Below are positions 2,831 through 25,090 of a stretch of 64,000 bases of DNA, one piece after another. Both the position numbers and the translations under genes were made by a program. The DNA is from a virus, in IMG/VR virus record IMGVR_UViG_3300013126_000010, positions 120,708 to 184,707 of that record; one strand, written 5' to 3'. Every line of letters begins with the position of its first letter. Position 1 is the stretch's first letter. Below the pieces are notes generated by a model, which ran no database searches, was not told the origin of the DNA, and saw only the letters and a list, made by a program, of their open reading frames with translations.

Positions 2831-2859
2831 ATTATAGCATTTATTTATCAAAAATGCAA
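2831..2859 (-). promoter_or_regulatory. sigma70-type early promoter
   Basis: TTGCAT-17 nt-TATAAT with extended TGC; predicted start just upstream of tRNA-Asn. Confidence 0.65.
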
Positions 2860-2949
2860 CAGGATGATATCATTTTGCGGGAACTATGGATTCAAACCAT
2901 ACAAACGCTTCCACTAGCGGTTCTCGATTAGATTGCAGTAATCATCCTA
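2860..2949 (-). ncRNA. cassette E1 enclosing a degenerate tRNA 3' portion
   Basis: TAGGATGAT/ATCATCCTG stem plus TTACTGCAA; loop holds CGC/GCG hairpin, TATGG-TTTGAAT-CCATA T-arm and GTTCCCGCA acceptor-like strand. Confidence 0.6.
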
Positions 2950-2956
2950 CAATTTC

Positions 2957-6904: not shown

Positions 6905-7113
6905 TATACTAACTCACTTAATTTGTCAACAGCTGATTCAATATTGTCAATGGCTTCATCACAATTATTTAAATGATCTTTAACTTCATATAACAATTCA
7001 CGCAATTTATCACGTTCTTTTGACAATGATTCTTTGTGTTTTGTCAATTCTTTGATAGCTTTATCGATATTGTTTGTTTTTTTCATAATTATATACAGGT
7101 TGATGTTTTTCAC
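6904..7113 (-). CDS. small coiled-coil protein
   Basis: heptad-like composition. Confidence 0.5.
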   Translation of the reverse strand: MKNINLYIIMKKTNNIDKAIKELTKHKESLSKERDKLRELLYEVKDHLNNCDEAIDNIESAVDKLSELV

Positions 7114-7157
7114 ATTTCAGGTATGATTGTTTATTTGCGGTAATCAACCTAAATTAG

Positions 7158-7282
7158 CAGGATAGTTTTTATACGTTGCTCTACCAGTCTGAGCTAACTT
7201 CTCCATAGTATTTGGGAGAAGTATGGGATTTGAACCCATGACCAACGGCTTAACAGGCTATTTAATTGCTGTAACTATCCTA
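7158..7282 (-). ncRNA. cassette E2 enclosing circularly permuted tRNA-Asn(GUU)
   Basis: TAGGATAGTT/AACTATCCTG stem plus TTACAGCAA; 3' half 7258-7213, 9-nt linker, 5' half 7203-7174; halves rebuild GAGAAGT/ACTTCTC acceptor and ACGGC/GCCGT anticodon stem. Confidence 0.8.
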
Positions 7283-14679: not shown

Positions 14680-14814
14680 TGTATTTTACCTCACTTCATT
14701 AAAAAGATGTTAAATTTAGATTAAATTTATTGATATTGCTATCCTCTGTATGTTATTGATAAAAGAAAATGTAAGATACATGCATATCTTATAACCGATG
14801 ATTCCATTCTATAT

Positions 14815-14960
14815 CAGGATGTATTAATTTTTTGACAGTCGCGTATACCACTTTCGCCACTTACCAGCCACCCGGAGGCTTATGGTCATTAGATGGGACT
14901 TGAACCCACACGTCTTTCGACAACTGTTTTTGATAAATTAAATTTGCTGAAAACATCCTA
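14815..14960 (-). ncRNA. cassette E3 enclosing circularly permuted tRNA-Leu(CAA)-like gene
   Basis: TAGGATGT/ACATCCTG stem plus TTTCAGCAA; 3' half (AT CAA AA ACAGT, variable arm, T-arm, CCA) precedes Leu-type 5' half ending ACTGT; acceptor stem only partly complementary. Confidence 0.7.
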
Positions 14961-15259
14961 AAAATTATCACATTGGTATGATTATTTTCCTACCAACATC
15001 ATTATAATCTATAATATCATGAAAAATTTGAAGTGTCAATCATTTTTGGAAAATTGTAAATATAAAACCTATTTTTTAAAATAATTAGTACACGCTGGCT
15101 GTATGCAACCAATTATTTTAAACCATCGTCGCTTCATGCTGCTGCCACATATTGGGCAAAAATCAGTGCACCATTCATTTATTAGGCGAGAAGGTGGTGG
15201 AGTTGGTTTTATTGGTGTTTTTATGTAATTTAAAACATTCAGAAGGTGTGAGAATATTT

Positions 15260-18719: not shown

Positions 18720-19344
18720 GGTGGTCCAGGTTGATAGAATCAAACTATATACTGTCCACCTAGTTCTAATATATGGTTTAGAAGACCATTACCGGGTAAG
18801 TGTGTTTAATTGTTTGTATATCTTGTTCCATTAATAATAGAGAGTATAGTAGTTTTACTAACATTGAATAATTTAGCAAGTTTCCGTGAACTAAATTGAT
18901 GATGATTTTCTCTAATGTATTTCACGTCGTCCTTTGTTAATTTTGATTGAATATGATCATGTCCTTTTTTCGGTTGTCTAAGTCCCAACTCAGCCGCATG
19001 TTTAAGTTGTTCTGACATTGTTGCCCATTCTAAATTACTGACGTTATTATTCAGTTTATTACCATCTATATGATTTACAGTAAGTTTATTTTCTGGATTA
19101 TCAATAAATGCTTTTGCAACTAATATATGGATCTTAAAACACTTCGCTGGACTATTTCTACCATTAAATCTAGTCACAAACACACAATAACCTTTCTGTG
19201 TCACACTATATTTTAATTCTTTATTAGTTCTTTTAGAATATATTTTACCAGTATTAGATACTTGAAAATAATCTTCATAACCAACTACATCTTTCCATAT
19301 TTCAACCATAAACACCTTTAATATTAATACTGAGCTAAACCTGT
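18720..19344 (-). tRNA. atypical tRNA-Arg(UCU)-like gene split in the D-region by an HNH ORF
   Basis: 5' piece ACAGGTT-TAGCTCAGT (19344-19329); 3' piece ATGGT-CT TCT AA-ACCAT, long variable region, T-arm, AACCTGG-ACCA. Confidence 0.5.
18806..19315 (-). mobile_element. NUMOD4-HNH homing endonuclease
   Basis: EIWKDVVGYEDYFQVSNTG NUMOD4; HILVAKAF..VNHIDGNKLNNNVSNLEW HNH. Confidence 0.9.
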
Positions 19345-21255: not shown

Positions 21256-21310
21256 CAGGATACTTTTTATTTTCGCCAATGAAATTTTTTAATTTGCTGA
21301 ATGTATCCTA
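21256..21310 (-). ncRNA. cassette E4 (short; small TTTC/GAAA hairpin cargo)
   Basis: TAGGATAC/GTATCCTG stem plus ATTCAGCAA; 4 nt downstream of tRNA-Ser CCA. Confidence 0.7.
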
Positions 21311-21314
21311 AAGT

Positions 21315-21407
21315 TGGCGGAAGATGACGGAGTTGAACCCCCAAGGCTGCTCATCACAGCTCGACGCATTTCAAGTGCGCTGCAGTCGCCAATCTGCTTG
21401 ATCTTCC
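21315..21407 (-). tRNA. tRNA-Ser(UGA)
   Basis: GGAAGAT/ATCTTCC-GCCA, CT TGA AA loop, long variable arm. Confidence 0.9.
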
Positions 21408-21453
21408 ATTATTCTATATTAACATTATTTTAATACTATGTCAAGTATAATTT

Positions 21454-21529
21454 TGGCAGGACTGACGGGTTTTGATCCCGCTACCTCTACATTGACAGTG
21501 TAGTGCTCTCCCGATTGAGCTACAGTCCT
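21454..21529 (-). tRNA. tRNA-Asp(GUC)
   Basis: AGGACTG/CAGTCCT-GCCA, CTACA-CT GTC AA-TGTAG. Confidence 0.9.
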
Positions 21530-21535
21530 AAAATT

Positions 21536-21620
21536 TGGTGGATTGTCTAAGAATCGAACTTAGCGAGTCAGTGACAGTGGTTCTACAGGCCACTCCGCCT
21601 CCATAACGGTTTACCAATCC
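21536..21620 (-). tRNA. tRNA-Tyr(GUA)
   Basis: GGATTG/CAATCC-ACCA, CT GTA GA loop, variable arm. Confidence 0.85.
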
Positions 21621-22147
21621 ATAAATATTTCTTTAACTTTTTCATCATCTATCCATTCTCCAACTGATATGTTAATTTGGTATTTTGATAGAATCGATTT
21701 TTCTTCTTCTCTCATATCATTAACTAGTTTATAATGTTCAACTTTAAACCGTCTAAATGGATCATATGTTTGATATGTTGCCAACCGTTTATTTAAATCT
21801 TGAGTTATTCCGATTTTGTACATATCTGGATATACTGGATTTGATATTAAATACAATATACCACATTTTAACTTAGGTTTAGATGATGTTTTTTCTTGCG
21901 TTTCTTGTCCAGTGGTTCGTGATAAACTTAATTTTAGTAACGATAACCCGGCTAATTTTTTATAATATCTAGCTTCTTTCTTTTTCTGTTTTGAAGCTTT
22001 TTCTGGGTATTGTTCACAATACGTGTCATAATATACGTCAAGTAAATCTATAGTCACCTCAAATGGTTCAGATATTGGAATTAGTCCTTTATCTATCATA
22101 CCATATATTATATTTTTTGTAATACTATTTCCGATTATTTCGTTCAT
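21611..22147 (-). CDS. GIY-YIG superfamily (T5orf172/MUG113-like) nuclease
   Basis: GILYLISNPVYPDMYKIGITQDLNKRL...E..I motif. Confidence 0.75.
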   Translation of the reverse strand: MNEIIGNSITKNIIYGMIDKGLIPISEPFEVTIDLLDVYYDTYCEQYPEKASKQKKKEARYYKKLAGLSLLKLSLSRTTGQETQEKTSSKPKLKCGILYLISNPVYPDMYKIGITQDLNKRLATYQTYDPFRRFKVEHYKLVNDMREEEKSILSKYQINISVGEWIDDEKVKEIFMDW

Positions 22148-22620
22148 AGTTGAATCATATCATAATAATTCAACTATGTCAACAATATTTTTTACAATTT
22201 TCCAAATTGTTAAAGAGCGTGGCCAATTTTTCTTTGGTCTTAAAACTGAAAAACCCAGTTTGATATTATCTCACTGGGTTCTCTGTTATTTTTTTTTGAA
22301 TCTTTGAAACTTATTATGTTTCTTTGTGATCCTTAACTGAGAAACCGAATTGTTCTGGGCGATAATCATAAAAACTCGGAACAAACGACACCGAAGATGA
22401 TTTATCATCCCATCTGCTAATCTCGATATGTTTAATGTGTGAAGTTTTCATAATATTTCAGTTATATAGTTTATTTATCTTTTTGTTTAAAAAATTAGTT
22501 TTAACATTTTGTATAGTTGTCAAGATTATCACTAATACATGCTTTGTGTCATTCGCAACACGATATTAGTTAATATTCAAAGTATATTAAGATACTTAAC
22601 AACTATACAAAATATTATTG

Positions 22621-22691
22621 TGGAGAATATCGGTACCGCCCCGATCATAGATGCAGTGCAAGTGCTTCCTGAGTGCCTATGCTCATTCCCC
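22621..22691 (-). tRNA. tRNA-Ala(UGC), short D-arm, atypical T-loop
   Basis: GGGGAAT/ATTCTCC with G3.U70, CT TGC AC loop. Confidence 0.72.
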
Positions 22692-22705
22692 ATAACAATA
22701 ATTTT

Positions 22706-22734
22706 ATTATAGCACGTTTTTTAAAGATGTGCAA
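22706..22734 (-). promoter_or_regulatory. sigma70-type early promoter
   Basis: TTGCAC-17 nt-TATAAT upstream of tRNA-Ala; similar motifs near 22950, 23158, 24940, 25440, 7505. Confidence 0.7.
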
Positions 22735-22995
22735 CTTTATTTATTATCAAAATCATAGTCTCCATTTCGGAGACTATGTTAATCAGTGTTCGTATTTCGT
22801 TTAATAACATTTTTTACTACAATTGCTGAATATGATTCCCAATTAGTTAGAATCTCATTCAATTTTTTTAATTTTTCAAATTTATCATCATCAAACATTT
22901 GTTTAATGTTATTATCTGATTTAAGTTCTGTGATTTTTTCCATATTTGTATAATAGCACATTTTCAAAAGATGTGCAACTTATTTATCATTTTAC

Positions 22996-23057
22996 CAGGA
23001 TAGCTTTTACGGTTTTGATTAGAAGTCAAATGTATTAAGCTTGCTGAAACTATCCTT
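22996..23057 (-). ncRNA. cassette E5 carrying a bare Arg(UCU) anticodon stem-loop
   Basis: AAGGATAG/CTATCCTG stem plus TTTCAGCAA; TTTGA-CT TCT AA-TCAAA at 23030-23014. Confidence 0.75.
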
Positions 23058-23096
23058 ATTCTTAACATCAAGGAGGTGATGTAATCTTTTATTTAA

Positions 23097-23151
23097 CAGG
23101 ATGTATTTATTTTCGCCAAATGAAATCTTTTAATTTGCTGTAAACATCCTA
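23097..23151 (-). ncRNA. cassette E6 (near-paralog of E4)
   Basis: TAGGATGT/ACATCCTG stem plus TTACAGCAA; TTTC-ATTTGGC-GAAA hairpin; begins at the predicted +1 of the promoter at 23158-23186. Confidence 0.75.
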
Positions 23152-23157
23152 AAATTT

Positions 23158-23186
23158 ATTATAGCACGTTTTTATAGATTGTGCAA
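23158..23186 (-). promoter_or_regulatory. sigma70-type early promoter driving E6/E5
   Basis: TTGCAC-17 nt-TATAAT. Confidence 0.7.
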
Positions 23187-23451
23187 CTATCTTTTCAAAA
23201 TATTGAAATATTCTTTACGTTCCATATCGAAACTGTTATATCTATACATTATATCATCATAAATGAATCCAAAAATGATTATTGTGAACACTACTGCGCT
23301 AATACAAATATAAGTCACTATTACATATAATAACCAAGTTGGATTATACCAATACAATAATCCTAATCCAACAAATATGGCAAATAAACCGAATATCGTA
23401 TGATAGTTATTATGATATAGCCATATGATAAAATTGGTATATTTTTTTAAT

Positions 23452-23508
23452 CTGGATCACGTTTTTCAAATTTACTGTTTGATTGTTTAGATTGCTGAAA
23501 TGATCCAA
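23452..23508 (-). ncRNA. cassette E7 carrying a bare Tyr(GUA)-like anticodon stem-loop
   Basis: TTGGATCA/TGATCCAG stem (compensatory changes) plus TTTCAGCAA; TCAAA-CA GTA AA-TTTGA. Confidence 0.72.
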
Positions 23509-23525
23509 TATATAACAACAAGAAC

Positions 23526-23602
23526 TGGCAGAGATATTCTGATTTGAACAGAAACTAGATCAGTCAAAGTGACCTGTGCTAACCGGATTACACTATATCT
23601 CA
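23526..23602 (-). tRNA. tRNA-Gln(UUG)
   Basis: GAGATA/TATCTC acceptor, GGTCA-CT TTG AC-TGATC, TTCAAAT T-loop, GCCA end. Confidence 0.85.
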
Positions 23603-24803: not shown

Positions 24804-24920
24804 CAGGGTAGCAAATATGTTTTACCGCTAAACTACCATAGTGACCAACTCTATGGCTGGGATTCGAACCCAGGACTTTTCTTTACGATAGAAATTATTA
24901 AAATTGCTGAAACTACCCAA
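24804..24920 (-). ncRNA. cassette E8 enclosing circularly permuted tRNA-Thr(CGU)
   Basis: TTGGGTAG/CTACCCTG stem plus TTTCAGCAA; 3' part (anticodon arm TTTCT-AT CGT AA-AGAAA, T-arm CTGGG-TTCGAAT-CCCAG, CCATAGA) 24894-24849; 6-nt linker; 5' part ACTATGG-TA-GTTT-AGCGGTA-AAAC-A 24842-24818. Confidence 0.8.
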
Positions 24921-25090
24921 GGTCATTTCATTAAATTAATTATAGCACATGTTTTATGATGTTGCAACTACTTTATGATTTTAAAACGGTACATTTATAA
25001 TAGGTACATTAGGAATAGTAGCATCCATTTTTTCTCTATCGGTAGTTGAGCACCCATAAAGAAAAAATATACCTATTATGATTAGGAGTT

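What the first reader, a model, noticed from the sequence alone, without database searches (positions are those of the whole stretch)
21256..23508. Mini-cassettes E4-E7 present isolated anticodon-like stem-loops: possible decoys for anticodon nucleases
Seen: E5 holds TTTGA-CT TCT AA-TCAAA (a canonical Arg(UCU) ASL). E7 holds TCAAA-CA GTA AA-TTTGA (Tyr-like). E6 and E4 hold TTTC-AT(T)TGGC-GAAA hairpins, a weaker match. Established: hosts use tRNA anticodon nucleases (PrrC, RloC, VapC toxins, PARIS AriB) as anti-phage effectors. Inference: 55-62 nt RNAs, possibly circularised, could titrate such nucleases or tRNA-modifying enzymes, or they may simply be deletion relics of the permuted tRNAs.
Basis: partly seen in the sequence, partly recalled or inferred. 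Interest (0 to 1): 0.72.

Follow-up and report, generated by a model that had tools for sequence, protein, structure and literature searches.

The report
Anticodon-loop mimics on phage Y-like RNAs
The four 55-60-base elements are real small-RNA genes of a large uncultured phage: each joins a conserved "handle", which travels with a Ro60-like ring protein, to a short hairpin copying a tRNA anticodon arm, so they are most likely that protein's partner RNAs, and a role as nuclease decoys is still untested.

Summary
Observation confirmed. E4 to E7 (minus strand) each have a 7-8 bp terminal helix, an unpaired UU(U/A)CAGCAA and an AU-rich hairpin.
- E5 holds UUUGA-CUUCUAA-UCAAA. Its loop equals the tRNA-Arg(UCU) loop of 28 tRNAs in related phages.
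- E7 holds the tRNA-Tyr loop with A at position 33.
- E4 and E6 hold a UGG-loop hairpin, a weak anticodon mimic.

A covariance model of the handle found 114 copies in 50 related phage loci. All lie on the strand of a DUF2828/DUF7788 gene, and the ones inspected flank it. Its AlphaFold model matches Ro60 structures. Of 62 distinct mini cargos, 33 have a stem of at least 4 bp and a 7-nt loop with U33 and R37 (shuffles 2.7; natural AT-rich windows 6.0). Thirteen carry an exact real anticodon loop (0.2 to 0.6 expected).

The minis are the commonest class, and E5 has an ortholog with compensatory changes. They are not mere relics.

Best reading: Y-RNA-like partner RNAs of a phage Ro60-like protein that display tRNA parts. 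The decoy idea is compatible but has no direct support. Circularisation has none.

This scan found the protein-handle system earlier on other DNA (28 notes). It is absent from Rfam and from the papers I searched.

The parts
21256..21310 (-). E4 mini RNA (55 nt): handle plus UUUC-AUUGGC-GAAA hairpin (21271-21284). It starts 4 nt after tRNA-Ser(UGA), 21315-21407.
   Evidence: R1 covariance model 59.9 bits. Rfam RF01414 32.1 bits, below its cut-off. Sequence.
22997..23056 (-). E5 mini RNA (60 nt): handle plus UUUGA-CUUCUAA-UCAAA (23014-23030). The loop is an exact tRNA-Arg(UCU) anticodon loop.
   Evidence: R1 55.1 bits. The loop equals 28 real tRNA loops. Ortholog L004:2082-2148 has compensatory changes in the handle and in the hairpin stem.
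23097..23151 (-). E6 mini RNA (55 nt): handle plus UUUC-AUUUGGC-GAAA (23111-23125). It is a paralog of E4 with two compensatory handle pairs.
   Evidence: R1 63.9 bits. RF01414 24.9 bits. Pair table.
23158..23185 (-). Sigma-70-type promoter (TGCACA, 16-nt spacer, TATAAT). Its -10 box ends 6 nt before the first base of E6.
   Evidence: Promoter scan 10 of 12 matches. Sequence.
23452..23508 (-). E7 mini RNA (57 nt): handle (UGGAUCA/UGAUCCA) plus UCAAA-CAGUAAA-UUUGA (23466-23482), the Tyr(GUA) loop with U33 replaced by A. It starts 17 nt after tRNA-Gln (23526-23602).
   Evidence: R1 51.3 bits. Relatives L041:11535 (CUGUAAA) and L034:11283 (AUGUAAA).
7093..7154 (-). Fifth mini RNA, not in the finding: handle plus UCAUA-CCUGAAA-UGUGA, the Ser(UGA) loop with U33 replaced by C.
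   Evidence: R1 35.3 bits, E 5.6e-5. Sequence.
24806..24918 (-). Large cassette of the same family. Order: handle, anticodon arm UUUCU-AUCGUAA-AGAAA, T arm, loop-closed acceptor, D arm, handle.
   Evidence: R1 68.6 bits. YrlA RF02553 25.9 bits against a cut-off of 69. Hairpins.
7158..7282 (-). Large cassette with an Asn(GUU)-type anticodon loop. It is a circular permutation of the handle-bearing tRNAs in L029.
   Evidence: R1 63.5 bits. Comparison with L029 10274-10386.
14814..14961 (-). Large cassette of the family.
   Evidence: R1 71 bits.
2859..2950 (-). Medium cassette: handle plus a tRNA top half (T arm) with no anticodon arm.
   Evidence: R1 62.7 bits. T-arm hairpin.

Best explanation
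E4 to E7 are the minimal members of a family of small phage RNAs built like Y RNAs. The 5' and 3' ends pair into a 7-8 bp helix. The helix is followed by an unpaired UU(U/A)CAGCAA and ends in CUG or CAG. I call this the handle. It is most likely the binding site of the phage's Ro60-like ring protein (DUF2828 plus DUF7788, a TROVE-like domain plus a vWA domain). The interior is an exchangeable display module. In E5, E7 and about half of the minis in related phages it is a tRNA anticodon stem-loop mimic. In E4 and E6 it is a hairpin with UGG in its loop. In larger relatives it is a T arm, a tRNA top half or a whole tRNA body. By analogy with Ro60/Y-RNA particles, the displayed tRNA part would bring a tRNA-recognising partner to the ring protein, or hold it there. 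Shown: the RNA anatomy, covariation in the handle, linkage to the gene on the same strand, the Ro60 fold of the protein, and the enrichment of anticodon-loop features. Inferred: that the protein binds the handle, that the RNAs are expressed, and what the displayed loop contacts.
For: Handle: ten copies in this genome align. The helix covaries (A-U, G-C, U-A and C-G at three positions) while CAGCAA is invariant.

Linkage: model R1 finds 114 copies in 50 related loci fetched through the protein. All 114 lie on the protein's strand. In the loci inspected they abut the gene or form an array ending just before its start codon.

Leader: in this genome a cargo-less handle forms the 5' leader of the gene, 9 nt before its ribosome-binding site.

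Protein: Pfam gives DUF2828 plus DUF7788. The AlphaFold model has pLDDT 79.5. Its 12 best PDB matches are all Ro60/TROVE structures, full length, E 7e-8 to 1.5e-4.

Anticodon mimicry: 33 of 62 distinct mini cargos have a stem of at least 4 bp and a 7-nt loop with U33 and R37. Shuffles give a mean of 2.7 and a maximum of 8. Natural AT-rich windows give 6.0 and a maximum of 13. Thirteen of 62 loops equal a real anticodon loop, against 0.2 to 0.6 expected. Permuting letters within loops gives 27 observed against 9.6.

Selection on structure: E5 and L004:2082 differ by compensatory changes in both helices. The loop UUUGGGU, which equals this phage's tRNA-Pro loop, sits on two unrelated stems.

Expression context: E6 has its own promoter, and E4 and E7 sit like tRNA genes inside the tRNA array.

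Precedent: phage phiLo Ro60 binds two upstream Y-like RNAs that have a 5'-3' stem and an unpaired CGAA motif (PMC12135203). Bacterial YrlA RNAs mimic tRNA (PMC4201824).
Against: No binding or expression data exist. The window's minis lie 24-27 kb from the Ro60-like gene, not beside it. That gene is split here into two reading frames of 163 and 353 aa by a 1-kb insert, so its activity is uncertain. The anticodon-like hairpins are AU-rich and marginal: they are absent from the minimum-free-energy folds and from the RNAalifold consensus. Many loops depart from tRNA rules: A at position 32 in a third of loops, A or C at position 33 in E7 and in 7093-7154, and loops of 4, 6 or 8 nt. The handle motif differs from the known Ro60-binding motifs GNCGAA and CGAA. 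In the PhageMaP preprint, a Ro60-like phage protein acted against the Ppl defence when expressed alone, without phage RNAs.
Confidence: 0.6

Rival explanations
1. One reading: the minis act as competitive decoys or sponges that titrate host anticodon nucleases (or tRNA-modifying enzymes), with or without the Ro60-like protein. This would protect host or phage tRNAs during infection.
For: The loops copy real anticodon loops of several specificities: Arg UCU, Tyr GUA, Asn GUU, Ser GCU and UGA, Thr UGU and GGU, Pro UGG. A Lys UUU arm sits in the larger L012:8979. Each phage carries several different ones. They sit in tRNA islands, and phage tRNAs are thought to counter tRNA nucleases (text quoted). 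A review places TROVE proteins of jumbo phages among RNA-repair and counter-defence systems (PMC7824862). In the PhageMaP preprint, gp130 of Bas63, a Ro60-like protein next to a tRNA array, counters the Ppl defence. Felixounaviruses encode this protein family at about 42% identity.
Against: There is no direct evidence. The stems are 4-5 AU-rich pairs with free energy near zero, so they are poor free-standing mimics. A decoy must compete with a very large tRNA pool. The U33 replacements and odd loop sizes would weaken recognition by enzymes that read the loop. There is no bias towards the best-known nuclease target, Lys UUU, among the minis. The target of Ppl is unknown, and gp130 worked without its RNAs.
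Confidence: 0.15
2. Only the handle matters. The minis would be spare operator copies or processing punctuation of the tRNA operon that bind or buffer the Ro60-like protein. On this view the anticodon-like hairpin is an inherited leftover from the tRNA-derived larger cassettes and has no role of its own.
For: A cargo-less handle exists in the gene's 5' leader. The hairpins are thermodynamically marginal and many loops are degenerate. The 3' linker of E5 (AACCGUAAAAG) resembles the linker after the D arm of the large cassettes (AACGUAUAAAA), which suggests descent by deletion.
Against: Loop features are enriched well beyond what drift should leave. Identical loops sit on unrelated stems, and hairpin stems show compensatory changes between orthologs. 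The hairpin keeps a constant place 8-10 nt after CAGCAA.
Confidence: 0.12
3. The minis are non-functional deletion relics of permuted tRNA-like cassettes.
For: There is sequence kinship with the large cassettes. Some loops have decayed: the 6-nt loop of E4 and the U33 replacements.
Against: Minis are the majority class (67 of 106 distinct hits) and occur in nearly every related locus, often several per phage. The handle helices of the paralogs E4 and E6 differ by compensatory pairs. E6 has its own promoter. E5 is conserved in a phage whose Ro60-like protein is only 58% identical.
Confidence: 0.06
4. For E4 and E6 only: the loop-displayed UGG(C/U/G) pairs with the NCCA 3' end of tRNAs, as T-box and RNase P RNAs do. 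This would tether uncharged or damaged tRNAs to the ring protein. These two would then not be anticodon mimics.
For: UGG occurs in 23 of 62 mini cargos (shuffle mean 4.5, maximum 12). It always sits in the apical loop, but its register and the loop size vary (4, 6 or 7 nt), which fits a sequence motif better than an anticodon position. Ro60 rings are known to thread single-stranded 3' ends; this is established knowledge and was not tested here.
Against: The exact loop UUUGGGU equals the tRNA-Pro(UGG) anticodon loop of this phage, so descent from Pro or Gln anticodon arms explains the UGG equally well. No covariation with discriminator bases was tested.
Confidence: 0.05

Closest known systems
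Ro60 (Rsr) with Y RNAs: bacterial and mycobacteriophage YrlA/YrlB (Rfam RF02553; Chen et al. 2014, PMC4201824) and Thermus phage phiLo Ro60 with Yrl1/Yrl2 (PMC12135203)
   Same: A ring protein with the Ro60 fold (TROVE-like plus vWA) is encoded beside several small RNAs on the same strand. In those RNAs the 5' and 3' ends pair next to an unpaired conserved motif, and the variable module mimics tRNA. Short forms without a full tRNA domain (YrlB, Yrl2) also exist.
   Different: The protein is a DUF2828/DUF7788 family member, and a profile of it finds no Ro60 among PDB sequences. The motif is UU(U/A)CAGCAA, not GNCGAA or CGAA. No copy reaches the Rfam YrlA cut-off (best 39.1 bits against 69). The minis display an anticodon arm, a part that YrlA lacks (YrlA mimics the D arm, T arm and acceptor). 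Each phage carries many more copies.
Dictyostelium Class I RNAs (Rfam RF01414; Kjellin et al. 2021, PMC7919456)
   Same: Length 42-65 nt; a 6-bp terminal helix that covaries; a single-stranded motif ending in ACAGCAA right after the 5' strand; a conserved G at the start of the helix pairing with the C of a CUG(U) 3' end; a variable interior; multi-copy families. The Rfam model hits exactly the minis in three phages, full length: E4 32.1, E6 24.9, L004 26.9 and L005 25.0 bits.
   Different: All hits lie below the Rfam cut-off of 41.5 bits. Class I RNAs are eukaryotic, are reported as unique to Dictyostelia, and have a known binder that is an RRM protein (Rnp1A). I could not test whether dictyostelids encode a DUF2828 protein.
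Phage tRNA arrays and tRNA-based counter-defence; Bas63 gp130, a Ro60-like protein that counters Ppl (PhageMaP preprint, doi 10.1101/2024.10.10.617714)
   Same: The minis sit inside a phage tRNA island and copy tRNA anticodon loops. A Ro60-like phage protein next to a tRNA array has an experimentally shown counter-defence effect.
   Different: The minis cannot decode because they have no acceptor, D or T arm. gp130 worked without phage RNAs, and the target of Ppl is unknown. Homology of gp130 to this protein is inferred at genus level: Felixounavirus proteins are about 42% identical to the L005 protein.

Membership tests
   Seven pairs with A-U, G-C, U-A and C-G exchanges at three positions among ten genome copies. 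Five of 8 handle pairs show double changes in A5.
   Present in E4, E5, E6 and E7. R1 scores are 51-64 bits.
   All 114 hits in related loci lie on the gene's strand. In this genome the gene (split) lies 24-27 kb away on the same strand, with a handle in its leader. No set of phages lacking the gene was scanned as a control.
Y RNA / YrlA (Rfam RF02553) | Score at or above the Rfam gathering cut-off of 69 bits, with the GNCGAAN0-1G motif near the 5' end | tested here: not met
   No mini is hit. The large cassettes reach 25.9 to 39.1 bits. The motif here is CAGCAA.
Y RNA / YrlA (Rfam RF02553) | tRNA-like domain with T arm, D arm and acceptor | tested here: not met
   The minis hold only one hairpin. 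Larger family members do have this domain.
Y RNA / YrlA (Rfam RF02553) | Physically bound by a Ro60 protein | not testable with these tools
   Needs immunoprecipitation or a gel-shift assay.
tRNA anticodon stem-loop (as a mimic) | 5-bp stem with a 7-nt loop | tested here: met
   Met for E5 and E7. E6 has 4 bp and 7 nt. E4 has 4 bp and 6 nt.
tRNA anticodon stem-loop (as a mimic) | Pyrimidine at 32, U at 33, purine at 37 | tested here: inconclusive
   E5 meets all three and equals a real loop. E7 has A33. E4 and E6 have A32. Across relatives, U33 is found in 31 of 53 loops and R37 in 43 of 53, but A32 in 18 of 53 against 2 of 86 distinct real tRNA loops.
Dictyostelium Class I RNA (Rfam RF01414) | Score at or above the gathering cut-off of 41.5 bits | tested here: not met
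   E4 32.1, E6 24.9, L004 26.9 and L005 25.0 bits. E5 and E7 are not hit.
Dictyostelium Class I RNA (Rfam RF01414) | About 60 nt, a 6-bp terminal helix, an 11-nt motif with near-invariant T3, C6, C9, A10 and A11, and a CUGU end | tested here: met
   Compared with the description in PMC7919456 and with the model alignment. The resemblance is architectural. Common descent was not tested.
Anticodon-nuclease decoy | Binds or is cleaved by an anticodon nuclease and relieves its effect | not testable with these tools
No known anticodon-nuclease inhibitor family was matched.

The most novel reading that the evidence does not exclude
Each phage of this large group carries a small library of anticodon-loop baits mounted on a common handle. 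The Ro60-like ring uses these baits to capture host enzymes that read anticodon loops, such as defence nucleases that cut tRNA, and then sequesters or destroys them. The set of loops a phage carries would then mirror the tRNA-targeting defences of its hosts.
Probability: 0.15. Interest if true: 0.85.

Novelty: new variant of a known kind. Interest (0 to 1): 0.62.

Why it matters
Ro60/Y-RNA particles are conserved from bacteria to humans, yet what the variable part of a Y RNA recruits is known in only a few cases. In this family the variable part can be read directly. It is a tRNA piece, often an exact anticodon loop, and it changes from copy to copy on a constant handle. That makes the question "what does the displayed module bind?" testable with simple pull-downs.

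Relatives of the protein occur in 710 cultured phage records, including E. coli K-12 Felixounaviruses. In the PhageMaP preprint, a Ro60-like protein of one phage said to belong to that genus has a counter-defence phenotype. The RNAs are annotated in none of the public records I looked at, and they are missing from Rfam. The handle also matches the orphan Class I RNAs of Dictyostelium, which could give those RNAs a first mechanistic lead.

Tried and rejected
- **Rfam.** At gathering cut-offs nothing lies in the four elements. At permissive cut-offs there are only sub-threshold hits to Dicty Class I and YrlA.
- **ARAGORN.** It does not call the minis or the handle-bearing tRNAs of L029.
- **Thermodynamic folding and RNAalifold.** Both recover the handle but not the anticodon-like hairpins. 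Support for the hairpins is therefore statistical and comparative, not energetic.
- **MITE or transposon reading.** Rejected: the terminal repeats covary instead of keeping their sequence, and I saw no target-site duplication.
- **Terminator reading.** Rejected: no U tract follows.
- **Circular RNA or a ligase partner.** No RtcB, Rnl1 or Rnl2 in the contig. The contig is only about 52% complete, so this is weak evidence.
- **Profile search against PDB sequences.** No Ro60 hit. Only the fold search shows the relationship.
- **Group I intron in the split Ro60-like gene.** None found by Rfam.
- **Megablast of the region against cultured phages.** Only a tRNA-Asp fragment matched.
- **Dictyostelium side.** I could not establish whether Dictyostelium encodes a DUF2828 protein. 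The protein search returned only the top phage clusters, the Atlas gave only viral clusters, and the Avesson 2011 paper is not held.
- **Candidate small RNA at 22623-22697.** Not supported by folding (z +0.65) and not pursued.
- **Missing control.** I did not scan a set of phages lacking the gene with R1.
Full report
**What is there.** The window is AT-rich phage DNA. Its genes, 13 tRNAs and a permuted tmRNA lie on the minus strand. Read on that strand, the four elements have one plan:
- a 7-8 bp helix formed by the two ends;
- an unpaired UU(U/A)CAGCAA right after the 5' strand;
- an AU-rich linker, one short hairpin and an A-rich linker;
- the 3' strand, followed by G (the RNA ends CUG, or CAG in E7).

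The coordinates are E4 21256-21310, E5 22997-23056, E6 23097-23151 and E7 23452-23508.
- E5 UUUGA-CUUCUAA-UCAAA is canonical.
- E7 UCAAA-CAGUAAA-UUUGA has A at position 33.
- E6 has only 4 bp.
- E4 has 4 bp and a 6-nt loop.

A fifth mini lies at 7093-7154. The same handle also encloses larger tRNA-like bodies at 2859-2950, 7158-7282, 14814-14961 and 24806-24918. Three more copies lie just upstream of the window.

**The handle is a selected structure.** Among ten copies in this genome the helix shows A-U, G-C, U-A and C-G exchanges at three positions, while G17-C18-A19-A20 of the motif are invariant. E4 and E6 are paralogs with nearly the same interior, but two of their handle pairs differ by compensatory changes.

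**The handle travels with a Ro60-like gene.**
- A cargo-less handle forms the 5' leader of a gene about 3.9 kb upstream of the window, 9 nt before its ribosome-binding site.
- Pfam finds DUF2828 and DUF7788 in that gene.
- In this genome the gene is split at about residue 140 into reading frames of 163 and 353 aa. Both are well conserved (49% and 52% identity to an intact relative). About 1 kb with an opposite-strand reading frame lies between them. No group I intron was detected.
- With the 353-aa part I fetched 52 related viral loci at 37-59% identity. I then built a covariance model of the handle (R1).
- In about 0.9 Mb searched on both strands, all 114 hits outside this genome lie on the strand of the gene. 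In the loci I inspected they sit just downstream of the gene, or form an array that ends 6-15 nt before its start codon.
- An AlphaFold model of an intact relative (pLDDT 79.5) has Ro60/TROVE structures as its 12 best PDB matches: phage phiLo, Deinococcus Rsr, Xenopus and human. The alignments are full length with E 7e-8 to 1.5e-4. A sequence profile does not find them.
- The protein family is large: more than 8000 clusters and 710 cultured phage records, variously annotated as RNA-binding, Ro-like or DUF2828.

**Test of the anticodon-mimic claim across homologs.**
- Sixty-seven of the 106 distinct R1 hits are minis of at most 80 nt. They give 62 distinct interiors.
- Thirty-three have a hairpin with a stem of at least 4 bp and a 7-nt loop with U at loop position 2 and a purine at position 6. 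Mononucleotide shuffles give a mean of 2.7 and a maximum of 8. Length-matched natural AT-rich windows from the same loci, with tRNAs and hits masked, give 6.0 and a maximum of 13.
- Thirteen interiors carry a loop identical to one of the 86 distinct anticodon loops of 638 tRNAs called in the related loci and this genome. Expected values are 0.22 and 0.56.
- The exact loops cover eight specificities: CUUCUAA, CUGCUAA, CUGUUAA, CUGUAAA, UUUGGGU, CUUGUAA, CUUGAAA and UUGGUAA.
- Permuting letters within the loops gives 9.6 loops with U33 and R37, against 27 observed.
- UUUGGGU, which is the loop of this phage's own tRNA-Pro, sits on two unrelated stems.
- E5 and its ortholog L004:2082-2148 differ by compensatory changes in the handle and in the hairpin stem (UUUGA/UCAAA against UUAGA/UCUAA). 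Their loops differ by one base, and both are valid.

**Limits of the mimicry.**
- The hairpins are energetically marginal. They are absent from the minimum-free-energy folds and from the RNAalifold consensus.
- A third of the loops have A at position 32, which is rare in the real tRNAs.
- E7 and the 7093-7154 mini are real loops with position 33 replaced.
- E4 and E6 belong to a separate class. UGG occurs in 23 of 62 interiors (shuffle mean 4.5, maximum 12). It always sits in the apical loop, but the register varies, and distant relatives have a UGGC tetraloop. For these two, "anticodon mimic" is the weaker description.

**The family is modular.**
- In L029 the same RNA as window 7158-7282 occurs in normal tRNA order. 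There the handle is a loop-closed extra arm between the D arm and the anticodon arm. Rfam calls these tRNAs of 113-118 nt, and ARAGORN calls none.
- In L012:8979-9079 the handle stands where the acceptor stem would be, on a body with a Lys(UUU) anticodon arm.
- One mini displays a T arm (L034:11522).
- So the handle can carry a whole tRNA, its top half, or its anticodon arm.
- The two circular permutations can arise at the DNA level in tandem arrays. They do not require circular RNA, and no ligase gene was found.

**Expression context.** E6 has a sigma-70-type promoter whose -10 box ends 6 nt before the handle. E5 follows E6 after 41 nt. E4 starts 4 nt after tRNA-Ser, and E7 starts 17 nt after tRNA-Gln. 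These positions suit co-transcription and processing with the tRNAs. Expression itself is inferred.

**Comparison with what is known.**
- The closest system is Ro60 with Y RNAs. YrlA RNAs mimic tRNA and lie beside Ro60 genes in bacteria and mycobacteriophages (PMC4201824). Phage phiLo Ro60 binds two upstream RNAs that have a 5'-3' stem and an unpaired CGAA motif, and it engages host PNPase (PMC12135203).
- Here the protein family, the motif (CAGCAA) and the displayed part (an anticodon arm) all differ, and no copy reaches the Rfam YrlA cut-off. I therefore call this a new variant and not a member.
- The Rfam model of Dictyostelium Class I RNAs hits exactly the minis in three phages, always full length and always below its cut-off. 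The published description of that class matches the handle feature by feature (PMC7919456). I could not test whether dictyostelids have the protein.
- A jumbo-phage review lists TROVE proteins among RNA-repair and counter-defence functions (PMC7824862).
- The PhageMaP preprint shows that a Ro60-like protein next to the tRNA array of phage Bas63 counters the Ppl defence, even when expressed alone.
- E. coli K-12 Felixounaviruses carry both the protein and four unannotated handle RNAs in the gaps of their tRNA array.

**Verdict.**
- The minis are best read as Y-RNA-like partner RNAs of a phage Ro60-like protein whose display module is an anticodon-arm mimic (confidence 0.6).
- The decoy hypothesis is one possible downstream role (0.15) with no direct support.
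- A handle-only role (0.12), relics (0.06) and CCA-end pairing for E4 and E6 (0.05) remain open.
- Earlier notes of this scan describe the same protein-handle system in this and at least 28 other genomes. I re-derived the linkage, the fold and the Class I resemblance here myself.

Noticed in passing
window 7158-7282 (-) compared with L029 10274-10386 and 10535-10648 (+): The same tRNA-like RNA occurs in two circular permutations. In one the ends lie in the handle and the acceptor is closed by a loop. In the other the order is that of a normal tRNA, and the handle is a loop-closed extra arm between the D arm and the anticodon arm. Rfam calls the latter tRNAs of 113-118 nt; ARAGORN calls none.
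   Followed up: partly
L001 6267-8809 (genome 114266-116808, upstream of the window): The Ro60-like gene of this phage is split at about residue 140 into reading frames of 163 and 353 aa. About 1 kb lies between them and carries an opposite-strand 310-aa reading frame (weak DUF7487 match). Rfam finds no group I intron. Both halves are well conserved.
   Followed up: partly
L001 8818-8864 (-): A handle with no cargo hairpin forms the 5' leader of the Ro60-like gene, 9 nt before its ribosome-binding site. In relatives the last RNA of the array ends 6-15 nt before the start codon. This suggests the protein may regulate its own translation.
   Followed up: no
E4 21271-21284, E6 23111-23125, and 21 further minis in related loci: UGG is strongly enriched in the apical loops of the mini cargos (23 of 62; shuffle mean 4.5). 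Its register and the loop size vary. It could pair with tRNA 3' CCA ends, or it may simply descend from Pro or Gln anticodon arms.
   Followed up: partly
window 21256-21308 and 23097-23149; L004 9560-9616; L005 9386-9436: The Rfam model of Dictyostelium Class I RNAs (RF01414) hits exactly the mini RNAs, full length, at 25-32 bits (cut-off 41.5). The terminal helix, the ACAGCAA motif, the CUG end and the size all match the published description.
   Followed up: partly
window 22706-22733, 22950-22977, 23158-23185, 24939-24967 (-): The promoters of this island share an inverted repeat GCAC(A/G)U...(A/G)UGUGC that fills the spacer between the -35 and -10 boxes. It may be an operator or a hairpin element.
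   Followed up: no
window 22623-22697 (-): A GC-rich 75-nt stretch lies just after the promoter at 22733-22706. It has acceptor-like and T-arm-like pairings. There is no Rfam or ARAGORN hit, and the fold z-score is +0.65, so it is unsupported as a structured RNA.
   Followed up: partly
L054 5712-5785, 5878-5944, 6334-6409, 6421-6554 (Escherichia phage garuso, MN850566.1): A cultured E. coli K-12 Felixounavirus carries four unannotated handle RNAs (GACC..UUACAGCAA...GGUCUG) in the gaps of the tRNA array after its vWFA (Ro60-like) gene. This makes it a tractable system for experiments.
   Followed up: partly
window 21611-22147 (-) and 18806-19315 (-): Homing-endonuclease-type genes (T5orf172/MUG113 domain; NUMOD4 plus HNH) sit among the tRNAs and mini RNAs.
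   Followed up: no
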